Shown: positions 19,955 to 48,663 of the stretch, in pieces
Position numbering within the stretch: the first letter of the stretch is position 1
Layout: each line of letters begins with the position of its first letter
Assembly (NCBI RefSeq): GCF_055900595.2
Contig: NZ_CM148325.1
Length of the DNA stretch: 64,000 nucleotides
Reading direction: 5' to 3' (one strand)
Notes under the pieces: model-generated
Databases searched by the model: none
The model's input: only the letters and a program-made list of their open reading frames with translations
What the model was told of the DNA's origin: nothing
Made by a program: the position numbers and the translations under genes

Positions 19955-20072
19955 ATTTCATTTTAACGAACGAAGCAGTCAGACGACTGCTTCGTTCGTC
20001 GTTCCACAAATCCAGTTTCGAGGAGAGACGCTTCGTTTCAAGATAACCAGCGGGTCCACTCAACTACAGCTC

Positions 20073-20246
20073 CTAAAAGAGAGAAAAAAGCAATGCCACA
20101 GGCAGACTCATTGGCCAGGTTATTCCGACCAGAAATGCACTAAGTAAACGAATATGTGTTTTCTCATGTGAGATAAACCAGATAATGACAAAGGATATGT
20201 TCACACCAATCACATAAAAAATTAATATTTTAGAGAATAGTGCCAT
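20073..20246 (-). CDS. ghoT: Type V toxin GhoT (small membrane-lytic peptide, 57 aa)
   Basis: Hand-translated minus-strand ORF MALFSKILIFYVIGVNISFVIIWFISHEKTHIRLLSAFLVGITWPMSLPVALLFSLF; below ORF-track size cutoff. Confidence 0.85.
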   Translation of the reverse strand: MALFSKILIFYVIGVNISFVIIWFISHEKTHIRLLSAFLVGITWPMSLPVALLFSLF

Positions 20247-20273
20247 TTTTTATGTTCTTCTTATCCTTCCTGA

Positions 20274-20570
20274 CTACTTGTAAAACTGACGGAAATAGTC
20301 ATCAACTGTCATAATGTTGAGGTCAAAATCAATATCCGGTAAGTCTAAGCATTTGAGCCTGATTAAATCTTCGATTTCACTTGCGGCTAACGATGTCGTT
20401 ATTGCGAAGGAATTTTCATTCAATTGTCGTGGTATCCCATATTCATCAGCCACGATAGAGGAGAAATTCATATCATACATCAATGATCTTAACCTTAAGA
20501 ACACTGAGGAATAAGATGATGGATAATCAAAAGAAACAACATAAGTATTGAACTTGTTTTTACCTTCCAT
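20274..20570 (-). CDS. ghoS: Type V antitoxin GhoS (sequence-specific endoribonuclease)
   Basis: Frame from ATG (complement 20568-20570): MEGKNKFNTYVVSFDYPSSYSSVFLRLRSLMYDMNFSSIVADEYGIPRQLNE... Confidence 0.85.
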   Translation of the reverse strand: MEGKNKFNTYVVSFDYPSSYSSVFLRLRSLMYDMNFSSIVADEYGIPRQLNENSFAITTSLAASEIEDLIRLKCLDLPDIDFDLNIMTVDDYFRQFYK

Positions 20571-20798
20571 AATATGACTCCTATCAATATTAAACGATCT
20601 GGGGCCGCACAACTTATTAACCCCGATCGATGATTCTCATATAGGAGATATTCTTTTTTTTTTGCTCAGTAAAGGGGATGACTTGGGACAAGAAAACGCT
20701 CTCTCTGACCATTCTTTGTTCATCCCCCTACCCTTCAGATTCTCTCCTGCATCACACCGCGGAGAGCATGAAAAATATCGTGACTCTGTACTCTCCCA

Positions 20799-21071
20799 TC
20801 AACTGCGAATATCATCATACTCACGCGTTTTATCAAATTCGTGTTTCGCAAATGGACATAATGGGATAATTTTTCGTTTTTCCCGACGCATTTTTTCCAC
20901 GACTTTCGCAACCAGCTGTTTACCAATCCCCTGCCCTTTCAGGCTTTCATCGACATCGGTATGTTCGATAATCGCTAAATTCTTGCCGGTCGGCACAAAG
21001 ACAATTTCAGCAATTTGCTTGCCCTGTTCGTCATTAATGTAAAATTTATTGTGGCCTTCGCGTATTTCCAT
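20799..21071 (-). CDS. yjdJ: GNAT-family acetyltransferase YjdJ
   Basis: 90-aa [57 protein letters not shown]... Confidence 0.8.
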
Positions 21072-21082
21072 TTTACCCTCGC

Positions 21083-21313
21083 TTATTTATGACGGTATTT
21101 CAGCGCGCCGCTCGGGCACATATCAATCACTTTCATTACAGTGGTGACATCAACTTCATCCGGCATGATCCACGGCTTACGTTTGAGGTTAAATAACCTG
21201 CCGTTGCCACGTACGCAATTGCCAGAATGCTGACATATTGCAGTGTTGAAATAGACATCGATCTTTTCGCCGGTATAACAGCGATAACCCCCGTCCAGTA
21301 GCGCCTGATCCAT
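21083..21313 (-). CDS. yjdI: Small Cys-rich protein YjdI
   Basis: 76-aa ORF in conserved position between yjdJ and dcuS. Confidence 0.75.
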
Positions 21314-21493
21314 GACCTTCCCTCTCTCATCAGTATGGTTTTCACTATAAGCATAGCCCCGGAATCTTCATACAGCACTGGCAGTTTCCGTTGCCAGAGT
21401 CTCTTCCCCTATATAGCCAATCATTCTTACTCCCTTTGAATTACCCGCCTCATCAGAGATAATGCTTAAGAAATTTGTCACACAAGGAAGCTG

Positions 21494-23125
21494 ATGAGAC
21501 ATTCATTGCCCTACCGTATGTTACGCAAACGTCCGATGAAATTGAGTACCACTGTGATCTTAATGGTCAGCGCGGTACTGTTCTCGGTGCTATTGGTGGT
21601 GCATCTGATTTACTTCTCGCAAATCAGTGATATGACGCGAGACGGGCTAGCCAACAAGGCACTGGCAGTGGCGCGTACCCTCGCCGACTCGCCGGAAATC
21701 CGTCAGGGCTTGCAGAAAAAACCGCAGGAGAGCGGCATCCAGGCCATCGCGGAAGCCGTGCGCAAACGCAACGATCTGCTGTTTATTGTCGTTACCGATA
21801 TGCAAAGTCTTCGCTACTCGCATCCTGAAGCCCAGCGTATTGGTCAGCCATTTAAAGGTGATGACATCCTTAAAGCGCTGAATGGCGAAGAAAATGTCGC
21901 TATCAATCGCGGTTTTCTGGCGCAGGCTTTACGCGTATTTACCCCCATCTACGATGAAAATCATAAACAAATTGGCGTGGTGGCGATCGGCCTTGAGTTA
22001 AGTCGCGTGACCCAACAGATCAATGACAGTCGCTGGAGCATCATCTGGTCGGTATTATTTGGCATGCTGGTCGGGCTGATTGGCACCTGCATTCTGGTTA
22101 AAGTACTGAAAAAAATCCTTTTCGGCCTGGAACCCTACGAAATCTCCACGCTGTTTGAGCAACGCCAGGCTATGTTGCAGTCTATCAAAGAAGGCGTCGT
22201 TGCCGTGGACGATCGCGGCGAGGTCACGCTGATCAACGATGCCGCACAAGAATTGCTGAATTACCGTAAGTCGCAGGACGATGAGAAACTGTCGACGCTA
22301 AGCCACTCGTGGTCACAGGTGGTAGATGTCTCGGAAGTGTTACGCGACGGTACCCCGCGGCGCGACGAAGAGATTACGATTAAAGATCGGCTATTACTGA
22401 TCAACACCGTTCCGGTGCGCAGTAATGGCGTTATCATCGGTGCCATTTCAACCTTCAGGGACAAAACTGAAGTACGTAAACTGATGCAGCGACTCGACGG
22501 TCTGGTCAACTATGCTGACGCACTTCGTGAACGATCCCACGAATTTATGAATAAATTGCATGTGATTCTCGGATTATTGCATCTGAAGAGTTATAAGCAG
22601 TTGGAAGATTACATTCTCAAAACAGCCAATAACTATCAGGAAGAGATTGGCTCTCTGCTGGGTAAGATCAAATCTCCGGTTATCGCTGGTTTTTTAATCA
22701 GCAAGATTAACCGCGCGACCGATTTAGGCCATACGCTGATTTTAAACAGTGAAAGCCAGCTGCCAGACAGCGGCAGTGAGGACCAGGTCGCGACGCTGAT
22801 TACCACGTTGGGAAATCTGATAGAAAACGCGCTGGAAGCATTAGGGCCGGAACCCGGTGGCGAAATTAGCGTAACATTGCACTACCGTCACGGCTGGCTG
22901 CACTGTGAAGTTAACGATGATGGACCGGGGATCGCACCCGACAAAATCGATCACATTTTTGACAAAGGTGTCTCGACAAAAGGAAGCGAGCGAGGCGTCG
23001 GTTTAGCACTTGTCAAACAACAGGTAGAAAATCTCGGCGGCAGCATCGCCGTGGAATCGGAACCCGGGATTTTCACACAATTTTTTGTCCAGATACCCTG
23101 GGACGGGGAGAGGTCGAACAGATGA
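21494..23125 (+). CDS. dcuS: C4-dicarboxylate sensor histidine kinase
   Basis: 543-aa ORF with N-terminal TM segments and C-terminal HATPase region; matches DcuS. Confidence 0.9.
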   Translation: MRHSLPYRMLRKRPMKLSTTVILMVSAVLFSVLLVVHLIYFSQISDMTRDGLANKALAVARTLADSPEIRQGLQKKPQESGIQAIAEAVRKRNDLLFIVVTDMQSLRYSHPEAQRIGQPFKGDDILKALNGEENVAINRGFLAQALRVFTPIYDENHKQIGVVAIGLELSRVTQQINDSRWSIIWSVLFGMLVGLIGTCILVKVLKKILFGLEPYEISTLFEQRQAMLQSIKEGVVAVDDRGEVTLINDAAQELLNYRKSQDDEKLSTLSHSWSQVVDVSEVLRDGTPRRDEEITIKDRLLLINTVPVRSNGVIIGAISTFRDKTEVRKLMQRLDGLVNYADALRERSHEFMNKLHVILGLLHLKSYKQLEDYILKTANNYQEEIGSLLGKIKSPVIAGFLISKINRATDLGHTLILNSESQLPDSGSEDQVATLITTLGNLIENALEALGPEPGGEISVTLHYRHGWLHCEVNDDGPGIAPDKIDHIFDKGVSTKGSERGVGLALVKQQVENLGGSIAVESEPGIFTQFFVQIPWDGERSNR

Positions 23126-38238: not shown

Positions 38239-39330
38239 ATGCGTTTTCTGCGCCGACCAATATCGCTGCGCCAACGGCTGATATTGACCATCGGGGCCAT
38301 TTTGTTGGTGTTTGAGCTGATCAGCGTCTTCTGGCTATGGCATGAAAGTACCGAGCAGATTCAGCTGTTTGAGCAGGCGCTACGCGACAATCGTAACAAC
38401 GATCGCCACATCATGCGTGAGATCCGCGAGGCGGTCGCCAGCCTGATTGTCCCTGGCGTCTTTATGGTCAGCCTGACGCTATTTATCTGCTATCAGGCGG
38501 TACGCCGCATCACCCGCCCGCTGGCGGAGCTGCAAAAAGAGCTGGAAGCGCGCACCGCCGACAACTTAACGCCCATTGCCATTCACAGCGCCACCCTCGA
38601 AATCGAAGCGGTGGTTTCAGCGTTAAACGATCTGGTCAGTCGCCTGACCAACACGCTGGATAACGAAAGGTTGTTTACCGCTGACGTCGCGCACGAACTG
38701 CGAACGCCACTGGCGGGGGTGCGTTTGCATCTGGAACTGCTGGCGAAAACGCATCACATTGATGTAGCACCGTTAGTGGCACGACTTGATCAGATGATGG
38801 AGAGTGTCTCCCAGCTACTGCAACTGGCGCGTGCCGGACAGTCATTTTCTTCCGGTAATTATCAACATGTAAAACTGCTGGAAGATGTCATTCTCCCCTC
38901 GTATGACGAACTCAGTACCATGCTCGACCAGCGCCAGCAAACCCTGCTATTGCCAGAGAGCGCCGCCGACATCATCGTTCAGGGTGATGCAACCCTGCTG
39001 CGGATGTTATTGCGAAACCTGGTAGAAAATGCCCATCGTTACAGCCCGCAAGGCAGCAACATTATGATTAAGCTGCAAGAAGATGGCGGAGCGGTCATGG
39101 CCGTTGAAGATGAAGGACCGGGTATTGATGAGAGTAAATGCGGGGAGTTGAGTAAAGCGTTTGTACGTATGGACAGCCGTTATGGCGGGATTGGTCTGGG
39201 GTTAAGTATTGTCAGCCGCATTACACAGTTGCATCACGGGCAGTTTTTCCTGCAAAACCGGCAAGAGACTTCTGGCACACGGGCCTGGATACGGCTGAAA
39301 AAAGATCAGTACGTGGCAAACCAGATATAA
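38239..39330 (+). CDS. basS: Sensor histidine kinase BasS (PmrB)
   Basis: 363-aa frame from ATG 38239 (MRFLRRPISLRQRLILTIGAILLVFELISVFWLWHESTEQ...); ORF track extends to an upstream TTG at 38230. Confidence 0.85.
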   Translation: MRFLRRPISLRQRLILTIGAILLVFELISVFWLWHESTEQIQLFEQALRDNRNNDRHIMREIREAVASLIVPGVFMVSLTLFICYQAVRRITRPLAELQKELEARTADNLTPIAIHSATLEIEAVVSALNDLVSRLTNTLDNERLFTADVAHELRTPLAGVRLHLELLAKTHHIDVAPLVARLDQMMESVSQLLQLARAGQSFSSGNYQHVKLLEDVILPSYDELSTMLDQRQQTLLLPESAADIIVQGDATLLRMLLRNLVENAHRYSPQGSNIMIKLQEDGGAVMAVEDEGPGIDESKCGELSKAFVRMDSRYGGIGLGLSIVSRITQLHHGQFFLQNRQETSGTRAWIRLKKDQYVANQI

Positions 39331-39395
39331 AGAAAGCTGCTGACCACCAGCACGCTGAACACGGTAGTTAAACTTTCATAAACACGGTTTTTCAT
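39306..39395 (-). CDS. pmrR: Small membrane peptide PmrR (29 aa)
   Basis: Hand-translated minus-strand ORF MKNRVYESLTTVFSVLVVSSFLYIWFATY; overlaps the 3' end of basS on the opposite strand. Confidence 0.6.
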   Translation of the reverse strand: MKNRVYESLTTVFSVLVVSSFLYIWFATY

Positions 39396-39506
39396 TGCAC
39401 TCTCCTCCGTTAACCTGGAGGAGAGTATGCGCGTCAGAGATTAAGTGAACCTTAAGAGTTCAATTGGCCTGATAAGACAGCATCACATCAGGCCATCCGT
39501 TTCAGC

Positions 39507-44376: not shown

Positions 44377-44777
44377 AGAAAATTTTTCCTTAAAGCAAAT
44401 TTTATTACTTTTATTTAGCCAGATTGTTTTTGAGTTCTGTTTTCGGCTTTTATAATTACTGCAAGAAATAATTTTATATTTAGAGTGTTGTTTTTTATTA
44501 GAATAAATAACGTCTTCCGATACGTTTAAAACGTCAGAAAGATAAAAATATCATTTGAATTAAAAAAAGAACAAGTAGAGCATTAACCTTATCTTAAATA
44601 ATAAATGGAGGCAAAAAGATTATTTTCTTTTTGCGTTTCCTTTCAAATGAAAACGATCGTCGTCTAAAATCAGCAGTACCCCCGACAAACTCAGGGATTT
44701 TGTGTATAATTGCGGCCTTTTTCGGCAATCTGCCGTTTTTTGGCGCTTTTGCCCTGCTGACTTTTGAGGAAATCCAC

Positions 44778-45113
44778 ATGTCATTACCACACTGCCCAAA
44801 ATGCAACTCCGAATACACCTACGAAGATAACGGCATGTACATCTGCCCGGAATGTGCCTACGAATGGAACGACGCAGAACCTGCACAGGAAAGCGACGAG
44901 CTGATCGTTAAAGATGCTAACGGCAATCTTCTGGCTGATGGCGACAGCGTTACCATCATTAAAGATCTGAAGGTGAAAGGTAGCTCTTCGATGCTGAAGA
45001 TCGGTACCAAAGTGAAAAACATTCGCCTGGTTGAAGGCGACCACAACATCGATTGCAAAATCGACGGTTTTGGTCCGATGAAACTGAAATCTGAGTTTGT
45101 GAAAAAGAACTGA
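44778..45113 (+). CDS. phnA: Zinc-ribbon protein PhnA
   Basis: 111-aa frame from ATG 44778 ([30 protein letters not shown]...). Confidence 0.85.
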
Positions 45114-45139
45114 TTGTATTGCTCAATGTAATATTGGCA

Positions 45140-45300
45140 CATGATCGGTAGGCCGGATAAGGCGCTCGCGCCGCATCCGGCTACGGTGCCGACTGCCTGA
45201 TGCGACGCTCGCGCGTCTTATCAGGCCTACAAATTCTCGCACCATCCGGCAACGGTGCCTAATGCGACGCTTACCGAGTCTTATCAGCCCCCGCTTATCT
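45140..45300. repeat. REP/BIME cluster (about three REP palindromes)
   Basis: GCCGGATAAGGCGCTCGCGCCGCATCCGGC and GCCTGATGCGACGCTCGCGCGTCTTATCAGGCC-type palindromes between phnA and phnB. Confidence 0.7.
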
Positions 45301-45352
45301 GTATAATTTTCGAACTACACTTAACTGGCTTCTCTTAACTGAGGTCACCATC

Positions 45353-45796
45353 ATGCCGTTAAGTCCCTACCTCTCTTTTGCTGGTAACTGTTCCGATGCG
45401 ATTGCCTATTATCAACGCACGTTGGGCGCGGAACTGCTTTATAAAATCAGCTTCGGCGAAATGCCGAAATCAGCGCAGGACAGCGCCGAGAACTGCCCTT
45501 CCGGTATGCAATTTCCCGATACCGCTATCGCCCATGCTAACGTGCGTATTGCCGGAAGCGATATCATGATGAGCGATGCCATACCGTCAGGAAAAGCCAG
45601 CTACTCCGGTTTTACACTGGTACTCGATTCGCAACAGGTCGAAGAAGGAAAACGCTGGTTTGATAACCTTGCTGCTAACGGAAAAATCGAAATGGCCTGG
45701 CAGGAAACTTTCTGGGCGCATGGCTTCGGCAAAGTCACCGATAAATTTGGCGTACCGTGGATGATTAATGTCGTCAAACAACAACCAACGCACTAA
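45353..45796 (+). CDS. phnB: PhnB (glyoxalase-fold protein)
   Basis: 147-aa ORF MPLSPYLSFAGNCSDAIAYYQRTLGAELLYKISFGEMPK... Confidence 0.85.
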   Translation: MPLSPYLSFAGNCSDAIAYYQRTLGAELLYKISFGEMPKSAQDSAENCPSGMQFPDTAIAHANVRIAGSDIMMSDAIPSGKASYSGFTLVLDSQQVEEGKRWFDNLAANGKIEMAWQETFWAHGFGKVTDKFGVPWMINVVKQQPTH

Positions 45797-45851
45797 CCCG
45801 CCGGGAGGCCCGCCCTCCCGCACTGTCATCGAATTCCCGTTAACTCTTCAT

Positions 45852-45873
45852 CTGTTAGTCACTTTTAGTTAAC
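45852..45873 (+). promoter_or_regulatory. Putative Pho box upstream of phnC
   Basis: CTGTTAGTCACTTTTAGTTAAC resembles PhoB-box half-sites (CTGTCAT-like repeats); a second CTGTCAT at about 45823. Confidence 0.4.
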
Positions 45874-45928
45874 AAAATCGTCACGATAATCCGCCACGAT
45901 GGAGCCACTTTTTTAGGGAGGCTGCATC

Positions 45929-46717
45929 ATGCAAACGATTATCCGTGTCGAGAAGCTCGCCAAAACCTTCAATCAGCATCAGGCGCTGCATGCGGTTGAT
46001 CTGAACATTCATCACGGTGAAATGGTGGCTCTGCTTGGGCCGTCCGGTTCCGGCAAATCCACCCTTTTACGTCATTTAAGCGGTTTGATTACCGGCGATA
46101 AATCTGCCGGTAGCCATATCGAGCTGCTGGGCCGCACAGTCCAGCGCGAAGGCCGCCTGGCCCGCGATATCCGCAAAAGCCGCGCCAACACCGGCTACAT
46201 CTTCCAACAATTCAACCTGGTGAATCGCCTGAGCGTACTGGAGAACGTGCTGATTGGCGCGCTCGGCAGCACGCCATTCTGGCGCACCTGTTTTAGCTAC
46301 TTCACCCGCGAGCAGAAACAGCGCGCGTTACAGGCGCTGACCCGCGTTGGCATGGTGCACTTTGCCCATCAGCGCGTTTCCACCCTCTCCGGCGGACAGC
46401 AGCAGCGTGTGGCGATTGCCCGTGCGCTGATGCAGCAGGCGAAGGTGATTCTGGCCGATGAACCGATCGCCTCGCTGGACCCGGAATCGGCCCGCATCGT
46501 GATGGATACCCTGCGCGACATCAACCAGAACGACGGCATCACCGTGGTGGTGACGCTGCATCAGGTGGATTACGCCCTGCGCTACTGCGAACGCATCGTC
46601 GCCCTGCGCCAGGGGCACGTCTTCTACGACGGCAGCAGCCAACAGTTTGATAACGAACGTTTTGACCATCTCTACCGCAGCATTAACCGCGTCGAAGAGA
46701 ACGCGAAAGCTGCCTGA
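45929..46717 (+). CDS. phnC: Phosphonate ABC transporter ATP-binding protein
   Basis: 262-aa ORF with Walker [10 protein letters not shown] and ABC signature LSGGQQQR. Confidence 0.9.
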
Positions 46718-47883: not shown

Positions 47884-48663
47884 ATGCAAACCATCACCAT
47901 TGCCCCACCCAAGCGCAGCTGGTTCTCGATCTTCAGCTGGGCCATTGTTCTCGCCGTACTGGTCGTCTCGTGGCAGGGCGCGGAAATGGCCCCGCTCACG
48001 CTGATTAAAGACGGCGGCAACATGGCGACGTTCGCCGCCGACTTCTTCCCGCCCGATTTCAGCCAGTGGCAGGATTACCTCACCGAAATGGCCGTCACGC
48101 TGCAAATCGCCGTCTGGGGCACCGCGCTGGCAGTCGTTCTCTCCATCCCCTTCGGCCTGATGAGCGCCGAAAACCTGGTGCCGTGGTGGGTTTACCAGCC
48201 CGTTCGCCGCCTGATGGACGCCTGCCGCGCCATTAACGAGATGGTCTTCGCCATGCTGTTCGTGGTCGCCGTCGGTCTCGGTCCGTTCGCTGGCGTACTG
48301 GCGCTGTTTATCCACACCACCGGCGTGCTCTCCAAACTGCTTTCCGAAGCGGTAGAAGCAATTGAACCCGGCCCGGTGGAAGGCATTCGCGCCACCGGTG
48401 CCAACAAGCTCGAAGAGATCCTCTATGGCGTGCTGCCGCAGGTGATGCCGCTGCTAATCTCCTACTCCCTCTATCGCTTCGAATCCAACGTCCGCTCGGC
48501 CACCGTTGTTGGCATGGTCGGCGCTGGCGGGATCGGCGTCACGCTGTGGGAAGCGATTCGCGGTTTCCAGTTCCAGCAAACCTGTGCCCTGATGGTGCTG
48601 ATTATCGTCACGGTCAGCCTGCTGGATTTCCTCTCTCAACGGTTGCGTAAGCACTTTATCTGA
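47884..48663 (+). CDS. phnE: Phosphonate ABC transporter permease (intact)
   Basis: 259-aa uninterrupted membrane ORF. Confidence 0.85.

What the first reader, a model, noticed from the sequence alone, without database searches (positions are those of the whole stretch)
45140..45300. REP/BIME cluster between phnA and phnB
About three canonical REP palindromes lie in tandem in the phnA-phnB gap. This is ordinary E. coli intergenic architecture, noted because it explains the long untranslated gap.
Basis: partly seen in the sequence, partly recalled or inferred. Interest (0 to 1): 0.15.

Follow-up and report, generated by a model that had tools for sequence, protein, structure and literature searches.

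The report
Shrunken REP325 repeat cluster after yjdM
The gap between yjdM (phnA) and yjdN (phnB) holds an ordinary, well-known E. coli repeat cluster: a short natural version (two good hairpins and one decayed copy) of the array called REP325/naRNA4 in strain K-12, which there protects the upstream message and limits read-through into the downstream gene.

Summary
The 239-bp yjdM–yjdN gap (45114-45352) has two canonical REPs, not three. A y-type REP lies at 45148-45181 and a z2-type REP at 45194-45230. They are in inverted orientation, not tandem, 12 nt apart, which makes one BIME-2 unit. The third copy (45257-45293) is a decayed z2: it has no CTAC tail, four stem mismatches, and folds no better than shuffled sequence. 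Its partner y REP was lost in a 31-bp deletion at a CATCC microhomology.

The intact unit matches Rfam naRNA4 (RF02564) full length at 99.2 bits (threshold 59.5). The locus is orthologous to K-12 REP325, which has six 100-bp units in a 657-bp gap. Unit number varies from 1 to 7 among E. coli. About 58% of complete genomes appear to carry one unit. The window's allele occurs in 17 of 5,426.

The most likely function is inferred from K-12 experiments: 3'-UTR hairpins that stabilise yjdM mRNA and attenuate read-through into yjdN, probably more weakly here. The nucleoid-condensation role proposed for naRNA4 is disputed by a 2026 preprint. This is an already known kind of element and of low interest.

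The parts
44779..45113 (+). yjdM (phnA) coding sequence, the upstream gene. The repeat cluster lies in its 3' untranslated region.
   Evidence: ORF. RefSeq annotation of near-identical loci as yjdM, a zinc ribbon protein.
45122..45141 (+). 20-bp segment CTCAATGTAATATTGGCACA, absent from K-12-type alleles. It moves the first REP from 14 nt to 34 nt after the yjdM stop codon.
   Evidence: Gap comparison. Found in the same 17 of 5,426 genomes that carry the decayed unit. TTGGCAC...ATCGGTAGG is shared with the Pseudocitrobacter leader, so the segment may be ancestral and deleted elsewhere (inference).
45148..45181 (+). y-type REP. GTAG tetranucleotide at 45148-45151. Stem arms at 45152-45165 and 45168-45181, with two central mismatches.
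   Evidence: 31/35 to the published y consensus. Inverted repeat I3. RNA hairpin of -22.1 kcal/mol, z = -3.3.
45182..45193 (+). 12-nt inner linker TACGGTGCCGAC between the two inverted REPs.
   Evidence: Aligns to linker positions 32-43 of the Rfam naRNA4 model. K-12 units have AACGGTGCCGAC.
45194..45230 (+). z2-type REP in the inverse orientation (iREP). CTAC at 45227-45230. Arms at 45195-45208 and 45213-45226.
   Evidence: 0 mismatches to the degenerate z2 pattern. 35/37 to the published z2 consensus. Hairpin of -21.4 kcal/mol, z = -5.5.
45151..45227 (+). One complete naRNA4-class unit (y hairpin, linker, z2 hairpin), on the same strand as yjdM.
   Evidence: Rfam RF02564 at 99.2 bits against a gathering score of 59.5, E = 9.9e-19, model positions 1-77 of 77.
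45220..45230 (+). ATCAGGCCTAC, an exact copy of the natural IS621 (bridge-RNA recombinase) target inside the z2 tail.
   Evidence: Sequence read. Target sequence from PMC11208160. IS621 is inserted at exactly this CT in strain RMDEC465, which carries the same allele; strain N96 shows the same ~1.4-kb spacing.
45231..45247 (+). Inter-unit 'U' motif AAATTCTCGCACCATCC. It shows that this allele descends from an array of at least two units.
   Evidence: Matches the 17-nt spacer AAATTCCCGCACC(C/A)TCC between K-12 units. Called the U motif in PMC4550694.
45248..45256 (+). Relic of the second unit: the last 3 nt of its y REP plus a shortened linker. The y REP itself is gone (31-bp deletion at a CATCC/CATCC microhomology). 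A further 7 bp (GACTGCC) is deleted at a TGCC repeat.
   Evidence: Pairwise alignment to a reconstructed two-unit allele. Direct repeat D1.
45257..45293 (+). Decayed terminal z2 REP, the 'third REP' of the finding. It has no CTAC and four stem mismatches and does not form a stable hairpin.
   Evidence: 30/37 to z2. It has the same TTACC loop as the terminal z2 of the divergent strain SCPM-O-B-8794, and the single-unit alleles have TGACC there. Fold of -6.8 kcal/mol, z = +0.38.
45294..45352 (+). Non-repeat yjdN upstream region: TATAAT at 45302-45307, conserved box AACTACACTTAAC at 45313-45325, Shine-Dalgarno GAGG at 45341-45344.
   Evidence: Conserved in Salmonella, Citrobacter, Enterobacter, Leclercia and Pseudocitrobacter gaps.
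45353..45796 (+). yjdN (phnB) coding sequence, the downstream gene.
   Evidence: ORF. RefSeq annotation as VOC family metalloprotein YjdN.

Best explanation
The element is a BIME-2-type cluster of E. coli repetitive extragenic palindromes in the 3' UTR of yjdM. It is the positional and sequence ortholog of K-12 REP325, the naRNA1-6 array.

Shown here: the window allele has one intact unit (y REP, 12-nt linker, inverted z2 REP), the 17-nt inter-unit spacer, and an eroded second unit. That second unit lost its y REP in a 31-bp microhomology deletion, and its z2 has decayed.

Inferred: the array grows and shrinks in 100-bp steps, by slippage or unequal recombination between units and possibly by the REP-associated transposase TnpA(REP).

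Inferred from K-12 experiments: the cluster is transcribed from the yjdM promoter. The two stable hairpins block 3'-to-5' decay and so stabilise yjdM mRNA. They also attenuate read-through into yjdN. With 2 functional hairpins instead of 12, attenuation is expected to be weaker and Rho-independent.

Secondary roles known for this class remain possible: a gyrase site at the y REP, HU-binding RNA, and a target for IS621.
For: Identity:
- y and z2 match published consensus sequences at 31/35 and 35/37.
- The z2 pattern is exact with none expected by chance.
- The GTAG and CTAC tetranucleotides face outward and each stem carries the characteristic internal mismatch. This fits the definition in PMC3333891.
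- Rfam naRNA4 scores 99.2 bits against 59.5, on the yjdM strand.

Orthology:
- The flanking genes are the same.
- K-12 has six 100-bp units of the same sequence in a 657-bp gap.
- PMC4550694 places REP325 between yjdM and yjdN with Y-l-Z2 units joined by U motifs.

Dynamics:
- Gap lengths of 159/160, 239, 258, 457, 557, 657 and 757 bp occur in 59 genomes sampled evenly down the similarity ranking.
- Rfam counts 1, 2, 6 and 7 units in representative alleles.
- The deletions lie at CATCC and TGCC repeats.

Function (K-12 only, preprint 10.64898/2026.03.23.713779):
- Deleting REP325 drops the yjdM/yjdN RNA ratio from about 35 to about 1. yjdM falls by log2FC -1.74 and yjdN rises by +3.36.
- The array gives a ladder of hairpin-ended transcripts.
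- Rho dependence appears only with the full 12-hairpin array.

A hairpin directly after the yjdM stop codon is present in every genus examined. No intrinsic terminator lies in the gap.
Against: - No expression data exist for this allele, so the functional part is extrapolated from a 12-hairpin array to a 2-hairpin one.
- In K-12, 2-4-hairpin fragments showed no detectable Rho dependence, so attenuation here might be slight.
- The MFE of the 89-nt unit is a single long y:z2 hairpin (-51.2 kcal/mol), not two separate hairpins (about -43.5 in sum). The RNA structure in vivo is therefore not certain.
- Different units have decayed in different lineages: the second y here, the first y in SCPM-O-B-8794. 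IS621 insertion is tolerated. Both are compatible with weak or no selection on most of the array.
Confidence: 0.85

Rival explanations
1. The unit is primarily a gene for a nucleoid-associated noncoding RNA (naRNA4). This RNA would bind HU and bridge cruciform DNA to condense the chromosome, as proposed for K-12 REP325.
For: Full-length Rfam naRNA4 match above threshold. PMC4550694 reports HU binding, decondensed nucleoids in the REP325 deletion, and rescue by plasmid naRNA4.
Against: The 2026 preprint, which shares an author with the 2015 paper (Adhya), finds no change in nucleoid volume on deletion or overexpression. It also finds no stable HU-DNA-RNA ternary complex and no HU-dependent REP-REP contacts in Hi-C. 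Most E. coli carry one unit rather than six, and this allele has one. The 2015 paper itself reports that antisense naRNA4 also works, so structure rather than sequence would matter.
Confidence: 0.08
2. The cluster is selfish or neutral repeat DNA with no host function at this site. It would persist through REP-transposase activity and drift, and the window allele would be an array in the course of decay.
For: Copy number ranges from 1 to 7 units. The third REP has decayed to the level of shuffled sequence. The first y REP has decayed in another lineage. IS621 interrupts the z2 in two genomes. TnpA(REP) cleaves and recombines BIMEs in vitro.
Against: Every allele examined keeps at least one unit above the Rfam threshold. 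No sampled gap is shorter than 158 bp. The top pair of the y stem differs as T-A versus C-G between copies, which preserves pairing. All related genera place a hairpin right after the yjdM stop. Deleting the K-12 array changes yjdM and yjdN RNA and growth.
Confidence: 0.2
3. The cluster acts mainly at the DNA level as a strong, transcription-independent DNA gyrase site that manages local supercoiling.
For: Gyrase cleavage sites are over-represented in BIME-2, and y REPs are cut more often than z2 (PMC6379681). The window keeps one intact y REP.
Against: Only a subset of BIME-2 elements is cut. That paper highlights sucC-sucB and tldD-yhdP, and its main text does not mention yjdM or REP325. Nothing here tests it.
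Confidence: 0.1
4. The palindromes are simply the intrinsic (Rho-independent) terminator of yjdM.
For: Two GC-rich hairpins lie soon after the stop codon.
Against: Neither hairpin is followed by a T run: REP2 is followed by CTACAAATTCTCGC. The terminator scan found none in the gap. In K-12, yjdM and yjdN are reported as one operon with read-through.
Confidence: 0.03

Closest known systems
REP325 / naRNA1-6 array of E. coli K-12 (Rfam RF02564 naRNA4, 'CssrE')
   Same: Same position between yjdM and yjdN and same strand. Same y-linker-z2 unit and same U spacer. The unit scores 99.2 bits against 95-111 bits for the six K-12 units.
   Different: One intact unit plus an eroded one, instead of six. 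The gap is 239 bp, not 657 bp. A 20-bp extra leader puts the first REP 34 nt rather than 14 nt after the stop codon. The y loop is CTCG, as in K-12 unit 1, rather than TTTA.
BIME-2 family of bacterial interspersed mosaic elements (Gilson/Bachellier classification, as summarised in PMC3333891)
   Same: y and z2 REPs in inverse orientation with a short linker. Extragenic. The copy number at the locus varies between strains.
   Different: It is effectively a single BIME-2 unit with a relic, not a multi-copy tandem array.
The common single-unit yjdM-yjdN allele (159/160-bp gap, e.g. FDAARGOS_1281, APEC E12049)
   Same: One functional y-z2 pair and one Rfam naRNA4 hit.
   Different: In those alleles the only z2 is the terminal one and lacks CTAC (tail GGCTTCC). 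Hence there is no IS621 target and no U motif. They also lack the 20-bp leader segment.
REP hairpins after yjdM in Salmonella, Citrobacter and Enterobacter
   Same: A GC-rich palindrome lies immediately after the yjdM stop and before the conserved yjdN upstream box.
   Different: The REP sequence families differ (for example GCCCGGTGGCGCTTCGCTTACCGGGC). They are single hairpins with no y/z2 pair, in gaps of 79-141 bp.

Membership tests
E. coli REP (y / z2 classes) | A 30-40-nt imperfect palindrome matching the y, z1 or z2 consensus | tested here: met
   REP1 matches y at 31/35 and REP2 matches z2 at 35/37. REP3 matches z2 at only 30/37 with a broken stem, so it is not met for the third copy.
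E. coli REP (y / z2 classes) | Conserved GTAG tetranucleotide at the foot of the palindrome (CTAC on the inverse copy) | tested here: met
   GTAG at 45148-45151 and CTAC at 45227-45230. REP3 has CCCG at 45290-45293.
E. coli REP (y / z2 classes) | Non-complementary base(s) inside the stem, required for TnpA(REP) binding (PMC3333891) | tested here: met
   REP1 pairs as |||||||xx||||| and REP2 as |||||||:x|||||.
E. coli REP (y / z2 classes) | Extragenic and highly repeated in the genome | tested here: met
   It lies between two CDSs. The 261-bp query found 29,680 places in 5,424 genomes, median 5 per genome. Within this 64-kb window it is the only canonical cluster.
BIME-2 | A y REP and a z2 REP in inverse orientation separated by a short linker | tested here: met
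   y at 45148-45181, 12-nt linker, z2 at 45194-45230. Inverted repeat I1 has 24-nt arms that are 83% complementary.
BIME-2 | Occurs as multiple tandem copies whose number varies between strains | tested here: inconclusive
   The window has one intact unit plus one eroded unit. At the same locus other strains have 1-7 units in 100-bp steps.
BIME-1 | A z1 plus y pair with a long L linker that carries an IHF site | tested here: not met
   No z1 is present: REP2 aligns to z1 only with several gaps (score 16, against 33 for z2). The linker is 12 nt.
naRNA4 (Rfam RF02564) | Sequence and structure match at or above the curated gathering score | tested here: met
   99.2 bits against 59.5, model positions 1-77 of 77, + strand.
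naRNA4 (Rfam RF02564) | Encoded in the yjdM-yjdN intergenic array (REP325) | tested here: met
   Flanking genes identified. Locus described in PMC4550694.
naRNA4 (Rfam RF02564) | Transcribed, accumulates as a discrete RNA of about 77 nt, and binds HU | not testable with these tools
   No expression or binding data exist for this allele.
Intrinsic terminator | GC-rich hairpin followed directly by a U tract | tested here: not met
   The scan of 44500-46000 found no terminator-like site in the gap. The hairpins are followed by TACGGTGCC and CTACAAATTC.

The most novel reading that the evidence does not exclude
Unit number and spacing at this locus could act as a natural, heritable dial on the yjdM:yjdN expression ratio. 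The window's rare allele has two live hairpins, no Rho-dependent array, and the first hairpin moved from 14 to 34 nt past the stop codon. That is beyond the <16-nt range in which REPs are reported to depress translation of the upstream gene. This allele would then be a distinct low-attenuation, translation-neutral setting. The six-unit K-12 array used as 'the model REP' would be atypical of the species, because about 58% of complete genomes appear to have a single unit.
Probability: 0.3. Interest if true: 0.35.

Novelty: already known. Interest (0 to 1): 0.14.

Why it matters
This matters little as a discovery. REP/BIME clusters have been textbook E. coli intergenic features since the 1980s-90s, and this exact locus (REP325/naRNA4) has a curated Rfam family and dedicated papers.

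There are two modest points of value. First, none of the RefSeq records inspected here, K-12 MG1655 included, lists any feature in this gap, so a scan should label it as a REP325/naRNA4-class BIME-2 rather than as unexplained sequence. Second, the survey here shows that the array studied in K-12 as a model (six units) is a minority state. One unit is the commonest, the range is 1-7, and this lineage carries a rare eroded two-unit allele. That is relevant to anyone generalising REP325 or naRNA4 results from K-12. It also offers ready-made natural alleles for testing how hairpin number sets attenuation versus mRNA stabilisation.

Tried and rejected
- A fuzzy regex scan with REP consensus sequences recalled from memory found only REP1 and REP2. 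It was later replaced by published consensus sequences.
- A phage-collection search with the yjdM 3' end was launched by mistake. It found nothing and is irrelevant.
- I looked for a repeat_region annotation in the NC_000913.3 record. No feature is listed in the gap, so the REP325 identity rests on the literature and Rfam.
- Liang et al. 2015 (PMC4427526) is not held. [quoted passage not shown]
- MAFFT alignment of whole gaps placed the window's intact unit against the second O157 unit and left the relic as an insertion. Alignment of repeats is ambiguous, so the deletions were mapped with a pairwise alignment to a reconstructed two-unit allele.
- 'Places per genome' from the junction query cannot be read as unit counts, because other BIME-2 loci add 1-2 places. 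Only the presence-or-absence figure (2,269 of 5,426) is used.
- The 40-aa ORF on the minus strand (45123-45245) was rejected as a gene. It is made almost entirely of REP sequence.
- The minus-strand promoter-like site at 45140-45113 (9/12) was considered and set aside as a weak consensus match with no support.
E. albertii, E. fergusonii and the other named Escherichia species were not recovered, so the ancestral state within Escherichia is only partly resolved.

Full report
**Context.** The window carries yjdM (phnA, 44779-45113, +), a 239-bp gap (45114-45352), yjdN (phnB, 45353-45796, +) and then phnC. Near-identical RefSeq loci are annotated the same way and list no feature in the gap.

- The degenerate z2 pattern matches 45195-45230 with no mismatch, and none is expected in 100 shuffles.
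- The REP tail CTTATCMGGCCTAC occurs exactly at 45148-45161(-) and 45217-45230(+).
- Against the y, z1 and z2 consensus sequences printed in PMC11208160, the first element is y (31/35). Three of its four differences are in or beside the loop and the fourth is the first base.
- The second element is z2 (35/37).
- Both fold as strong hairpins: -22.1 kcal/mol (z = -3.3) and -21.4 kcal/mol (z = -5.5).
- Each stem has the internal mismatch typical of REPs. GTAG (45148-45151) and CTAC (45227-45230) face outward.

The two canonical REPs are therefore inverted relative to each other and 12 nt apart, not in tandem. That is the definition of a BIME-2 unit (PMC3333891).

**The third 'REP' (45257-45293) is a relic.**
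- It matches z2 at 30/37 and ends in CCCG instead of CTAC.
- Its stem has 9 Watson-Crick pairs, 1 wobble and 4 mismatches.
- It folds at -6.8 kcal/mol, no better than shuffled sequence (z = +0.38, and 126 of 200 shuffles fold as well).

**Anatomy and history.** K-12 has a 657-bp gap made of six 100-bp units. Each unit is a y REP, a 12-nt linker, a z2 REP and a 17-nt spacer (AAATTCCCGCACC(C/A)TCC). The window reads as follows.
1. Leader, 45114-45147.
2. y REP, 45148-45181.
3. Linker, 45182-45193.
4. z2 REP, 45194-45230.
5. The same spacer, 45231-45247.
6. A second unit without its y REP.

Alignment to a reconstructed two-unit allele shows a 31-bp deletion bounded by CATCC/CATCC, which removes that y REP exactly. 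It also shows a 7-bp deletion at a TGCC repeat, a 2-bp deletion and several substitutions in the terminal z2. The 5-nt loop of the terminal z2 (TTACC) matches that of the terminal z2 in the divergent 'E. coli' SCPM-O-B-8794 and resembles the single-unit alleles (TGACC). It is therefore the ortholog of the array's last z2.

The leader has 20 extra bases (45122-45141) relative to K-12-type alleles. This puts the first REP 34 nt rather than 14 nt after the stop codon. The motif TTGGCAC...ATCGGTAGG is shared with Pseudocitrobacter, which suggests that the 20 bases are ancestral. This is suggestive only.

**What is it called?** Rfam RF02564 (naRNA4, 'CssrE') matches 45151-45227 on the + strand. The match is full length, at 99.2 bits against a gathering score of 59.5. 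Qian et al. 2015 (PMC4550694) define REP325 as the array between yjdM (phnA) and yjdN (phnB): six Y-l-Z2 repeats joined by U motifs and transcribed as naRNA1-6. The window element is thus a short allele of REP325.

**Population picture.** A query made of the two flanks returned 59 full-length genomes taken at even steps down the similarity ranking.

| Gap length (bp) | Units | Genomes | Examples |
|---|---|---|---|
| 158-160 | 1 | 39 | |
| 239 | window type | 1 | |
| 257-258 | 2 | 3 | O157:H7 |
| 457 | 4 | 3 | |
| 557 | 5 | 9 | BL21(DE3), strain C |
| 657 | 6 | 3 | K-12 derivatives |
| 757 | 7 | 1 | |

- Rfam counts agree with these classes: 1, 2, 6 and 7 hits in representative alleles.
- A z2-spacer-y junction query is present in 2,269 of 5,426 genomes, or 42%. 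About 58% therefore appear to have a single unit.
- The window's junction and its 20-bp leader segment occur together in the same 17 genomes, or 0.3%. All 17 differ from the window by one base in the 93-bp junction query, so the structure is inherited and not an assembly artefact.
- The window belongs to a rare lineage. Only 14-17 complete genomes are at least 99% identical at three separate loci.

**Beyond E. coli.** Across the 18 of the 48 syntenic Enterobacterales loci that I inspected, the gap always begins with a GC-rich palindrome of the local REP type. It ends with a conserved box, AACTACACTTAAC...CTGAGGT, before yjdN. Gaps of 79-81 bp hold a single hairpin. Pseudocitrobacter faecalis has one E. 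coli-type y-z2 unit (93.7 bits). SCPM-O-B-8794 has two units, with the first y decayed.

**How it most likely works.** The steps shown here are the identity, the orthology, the strand, the hairpin stability, the absence of a U tract or intrinsic terminator, and the 100-bp step variation.

The function is inferred from K-12. Preprint 10.64898/2026.03.23.713779 reports that deleting REP325 lowers yjdM RNA (log2FC -1.74) and raises yjdN RNA (+3.36). This collapses the yjdM/yjdN ratio from about 35 to about 1. The array yields a ladder of hairpin-ended transcripts, and Rho dependence appears only with the full 12-hairpin array, not with 2-4-hairpin fragments.

I therefore expect the window allele to stabilise yjdM mRNA and to attenuate yjdN weakly and independently of Rho.

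The same preprint finds no effect of REP325 or naRNA4 on nucleoid volume or on REP-REP contacts. This undercuts the nucleoid-condensation model of 2015.

Two DNA-level roles are known for the class but untested here. One is gyrase cleavage, mainly at y REPs of some BIME-2 elements (PMC6379681). The other is cleavage and recombination by TnpA(REP).

REPs less than 16 nt from a stop codon are reported to depress translation of the upstream gene (PMC12306157, citing Liang 2015). The 20-bp leader segment takes this allele out of that range. This is an inference.

**A caveat on structure.** The minimum-free-energy fold of the 89-nt unit is one long y:z2 hairpin (-51.2 kcal/mol), not the two local hairpins of the Rfam consensus. 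Co-transcriptional folding would favour the local ones, but this has not been shown.

**Verdict.** This is a real, ordinary and already known element. Its count ('three canonical') and its geometry ('in tandem') need correction. The interest is low.

Noticed in passing
window 45220-45230; L130 (NZ_CM177019.1 2781500-2783900): The z2 tail ATCAGGCCTAC is an exact copy of the natural target of IS621, the bridge-RNA recombinase. In strain RMDEC465, which carries the window-type allele, a 1,280-bp IS621 insertion sits exactly at the CT of this site (…CAGGCCT|TGTATTATCCC … ACAGTATCT|ACAAATTC). Strain N96 shows the same ~1.4-kb spacing between the two junctions. Single-unit alleles lack this target because their only z2 ends in GGCTTCC.
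   Followed up: yes
window, whole (tested at 20000-23000, 44514-45952, 44779-45113): The window comes from a rare E. coli lineage. Only 14-17 of 5,426 complete RefSeq genomes are at least 99% identical at three separate loci, and nearly all others are 95-99% identical (about 96-97.5% in the rows listed). The phylogroup was not determined.
   Followed up: partly
window 45313-45345: The box AACTACACTTAAC…CTTAACTGAGGT just upstream of yjdN is conserved across Salmonella, Citrobacter, Enterobacter, Leclercia and Pseudocitrobacter. It contains an internal direct repeat (CTACACTTAACTG / CTTCTCTTAACTG). It could be a 5' UTR or operator element, and it has no Rfam match.
   Followed up: partly
window 45302-45307: A perfect -10 hexamer TATAAT lies right after the decayed REP, where K-12 has TATAAA and Citrobacter and Pseudocitrobacter have TACAAA. 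The -35 is poor. It might be a yjdN-proximal promoter strengthened in this lineage.
   Followed up: no
window 44682-44735: A promoter-like site for yjdM (CCGACA-17-TATAAT, 10/12) is followed within the leader by a terminator-like hairpin plus T run (CGGCAATCTGCCG TTTTTT, 44723-44735), about 44 nt before the yjdM start codon. It is a possible leader attenuator, and it has no Rfam match.
   Followed up: no
window 39299-39464 (-): Rfam STnc630 enterobacterial sRNA at 182 bits, with a weak REP-tail-like match abutting it at 39463-39476. The same sRNA family is found in the Salmonella diarizonae locus L062.
   Followed up: no
window 1-64000: The y/z2 cluster in the finding is the only canonical REP found in 64 kb by the pattern searches used. 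K-12 is reported to have about 584 REPs in 4.6 Mb, roughly one per 8 kb. Degenerate or z1 copies could have been missed.
   Followed up: partly
window 47884-48663 (+): An uninterrupted 259-aa ORF lies where phnE is expected, downstream of phnC and phnD. From my own knowledge, K-12 phnE is disrupted by an 8-bp duplication, so this strain may have an intact phosphonate transporter. This was not checked.
   Followed up: no
L034 5634-5875 (-), 'E. coli' SCPM-O-B-8794: This divergent Escherichia genome (YjdN 95.9% identical) has a 242-bp gap with two units. In it the first y REP is the decayed one, the opposite of the window. Only one unit passes the Rfam threshold in each.
   Followed up: partly
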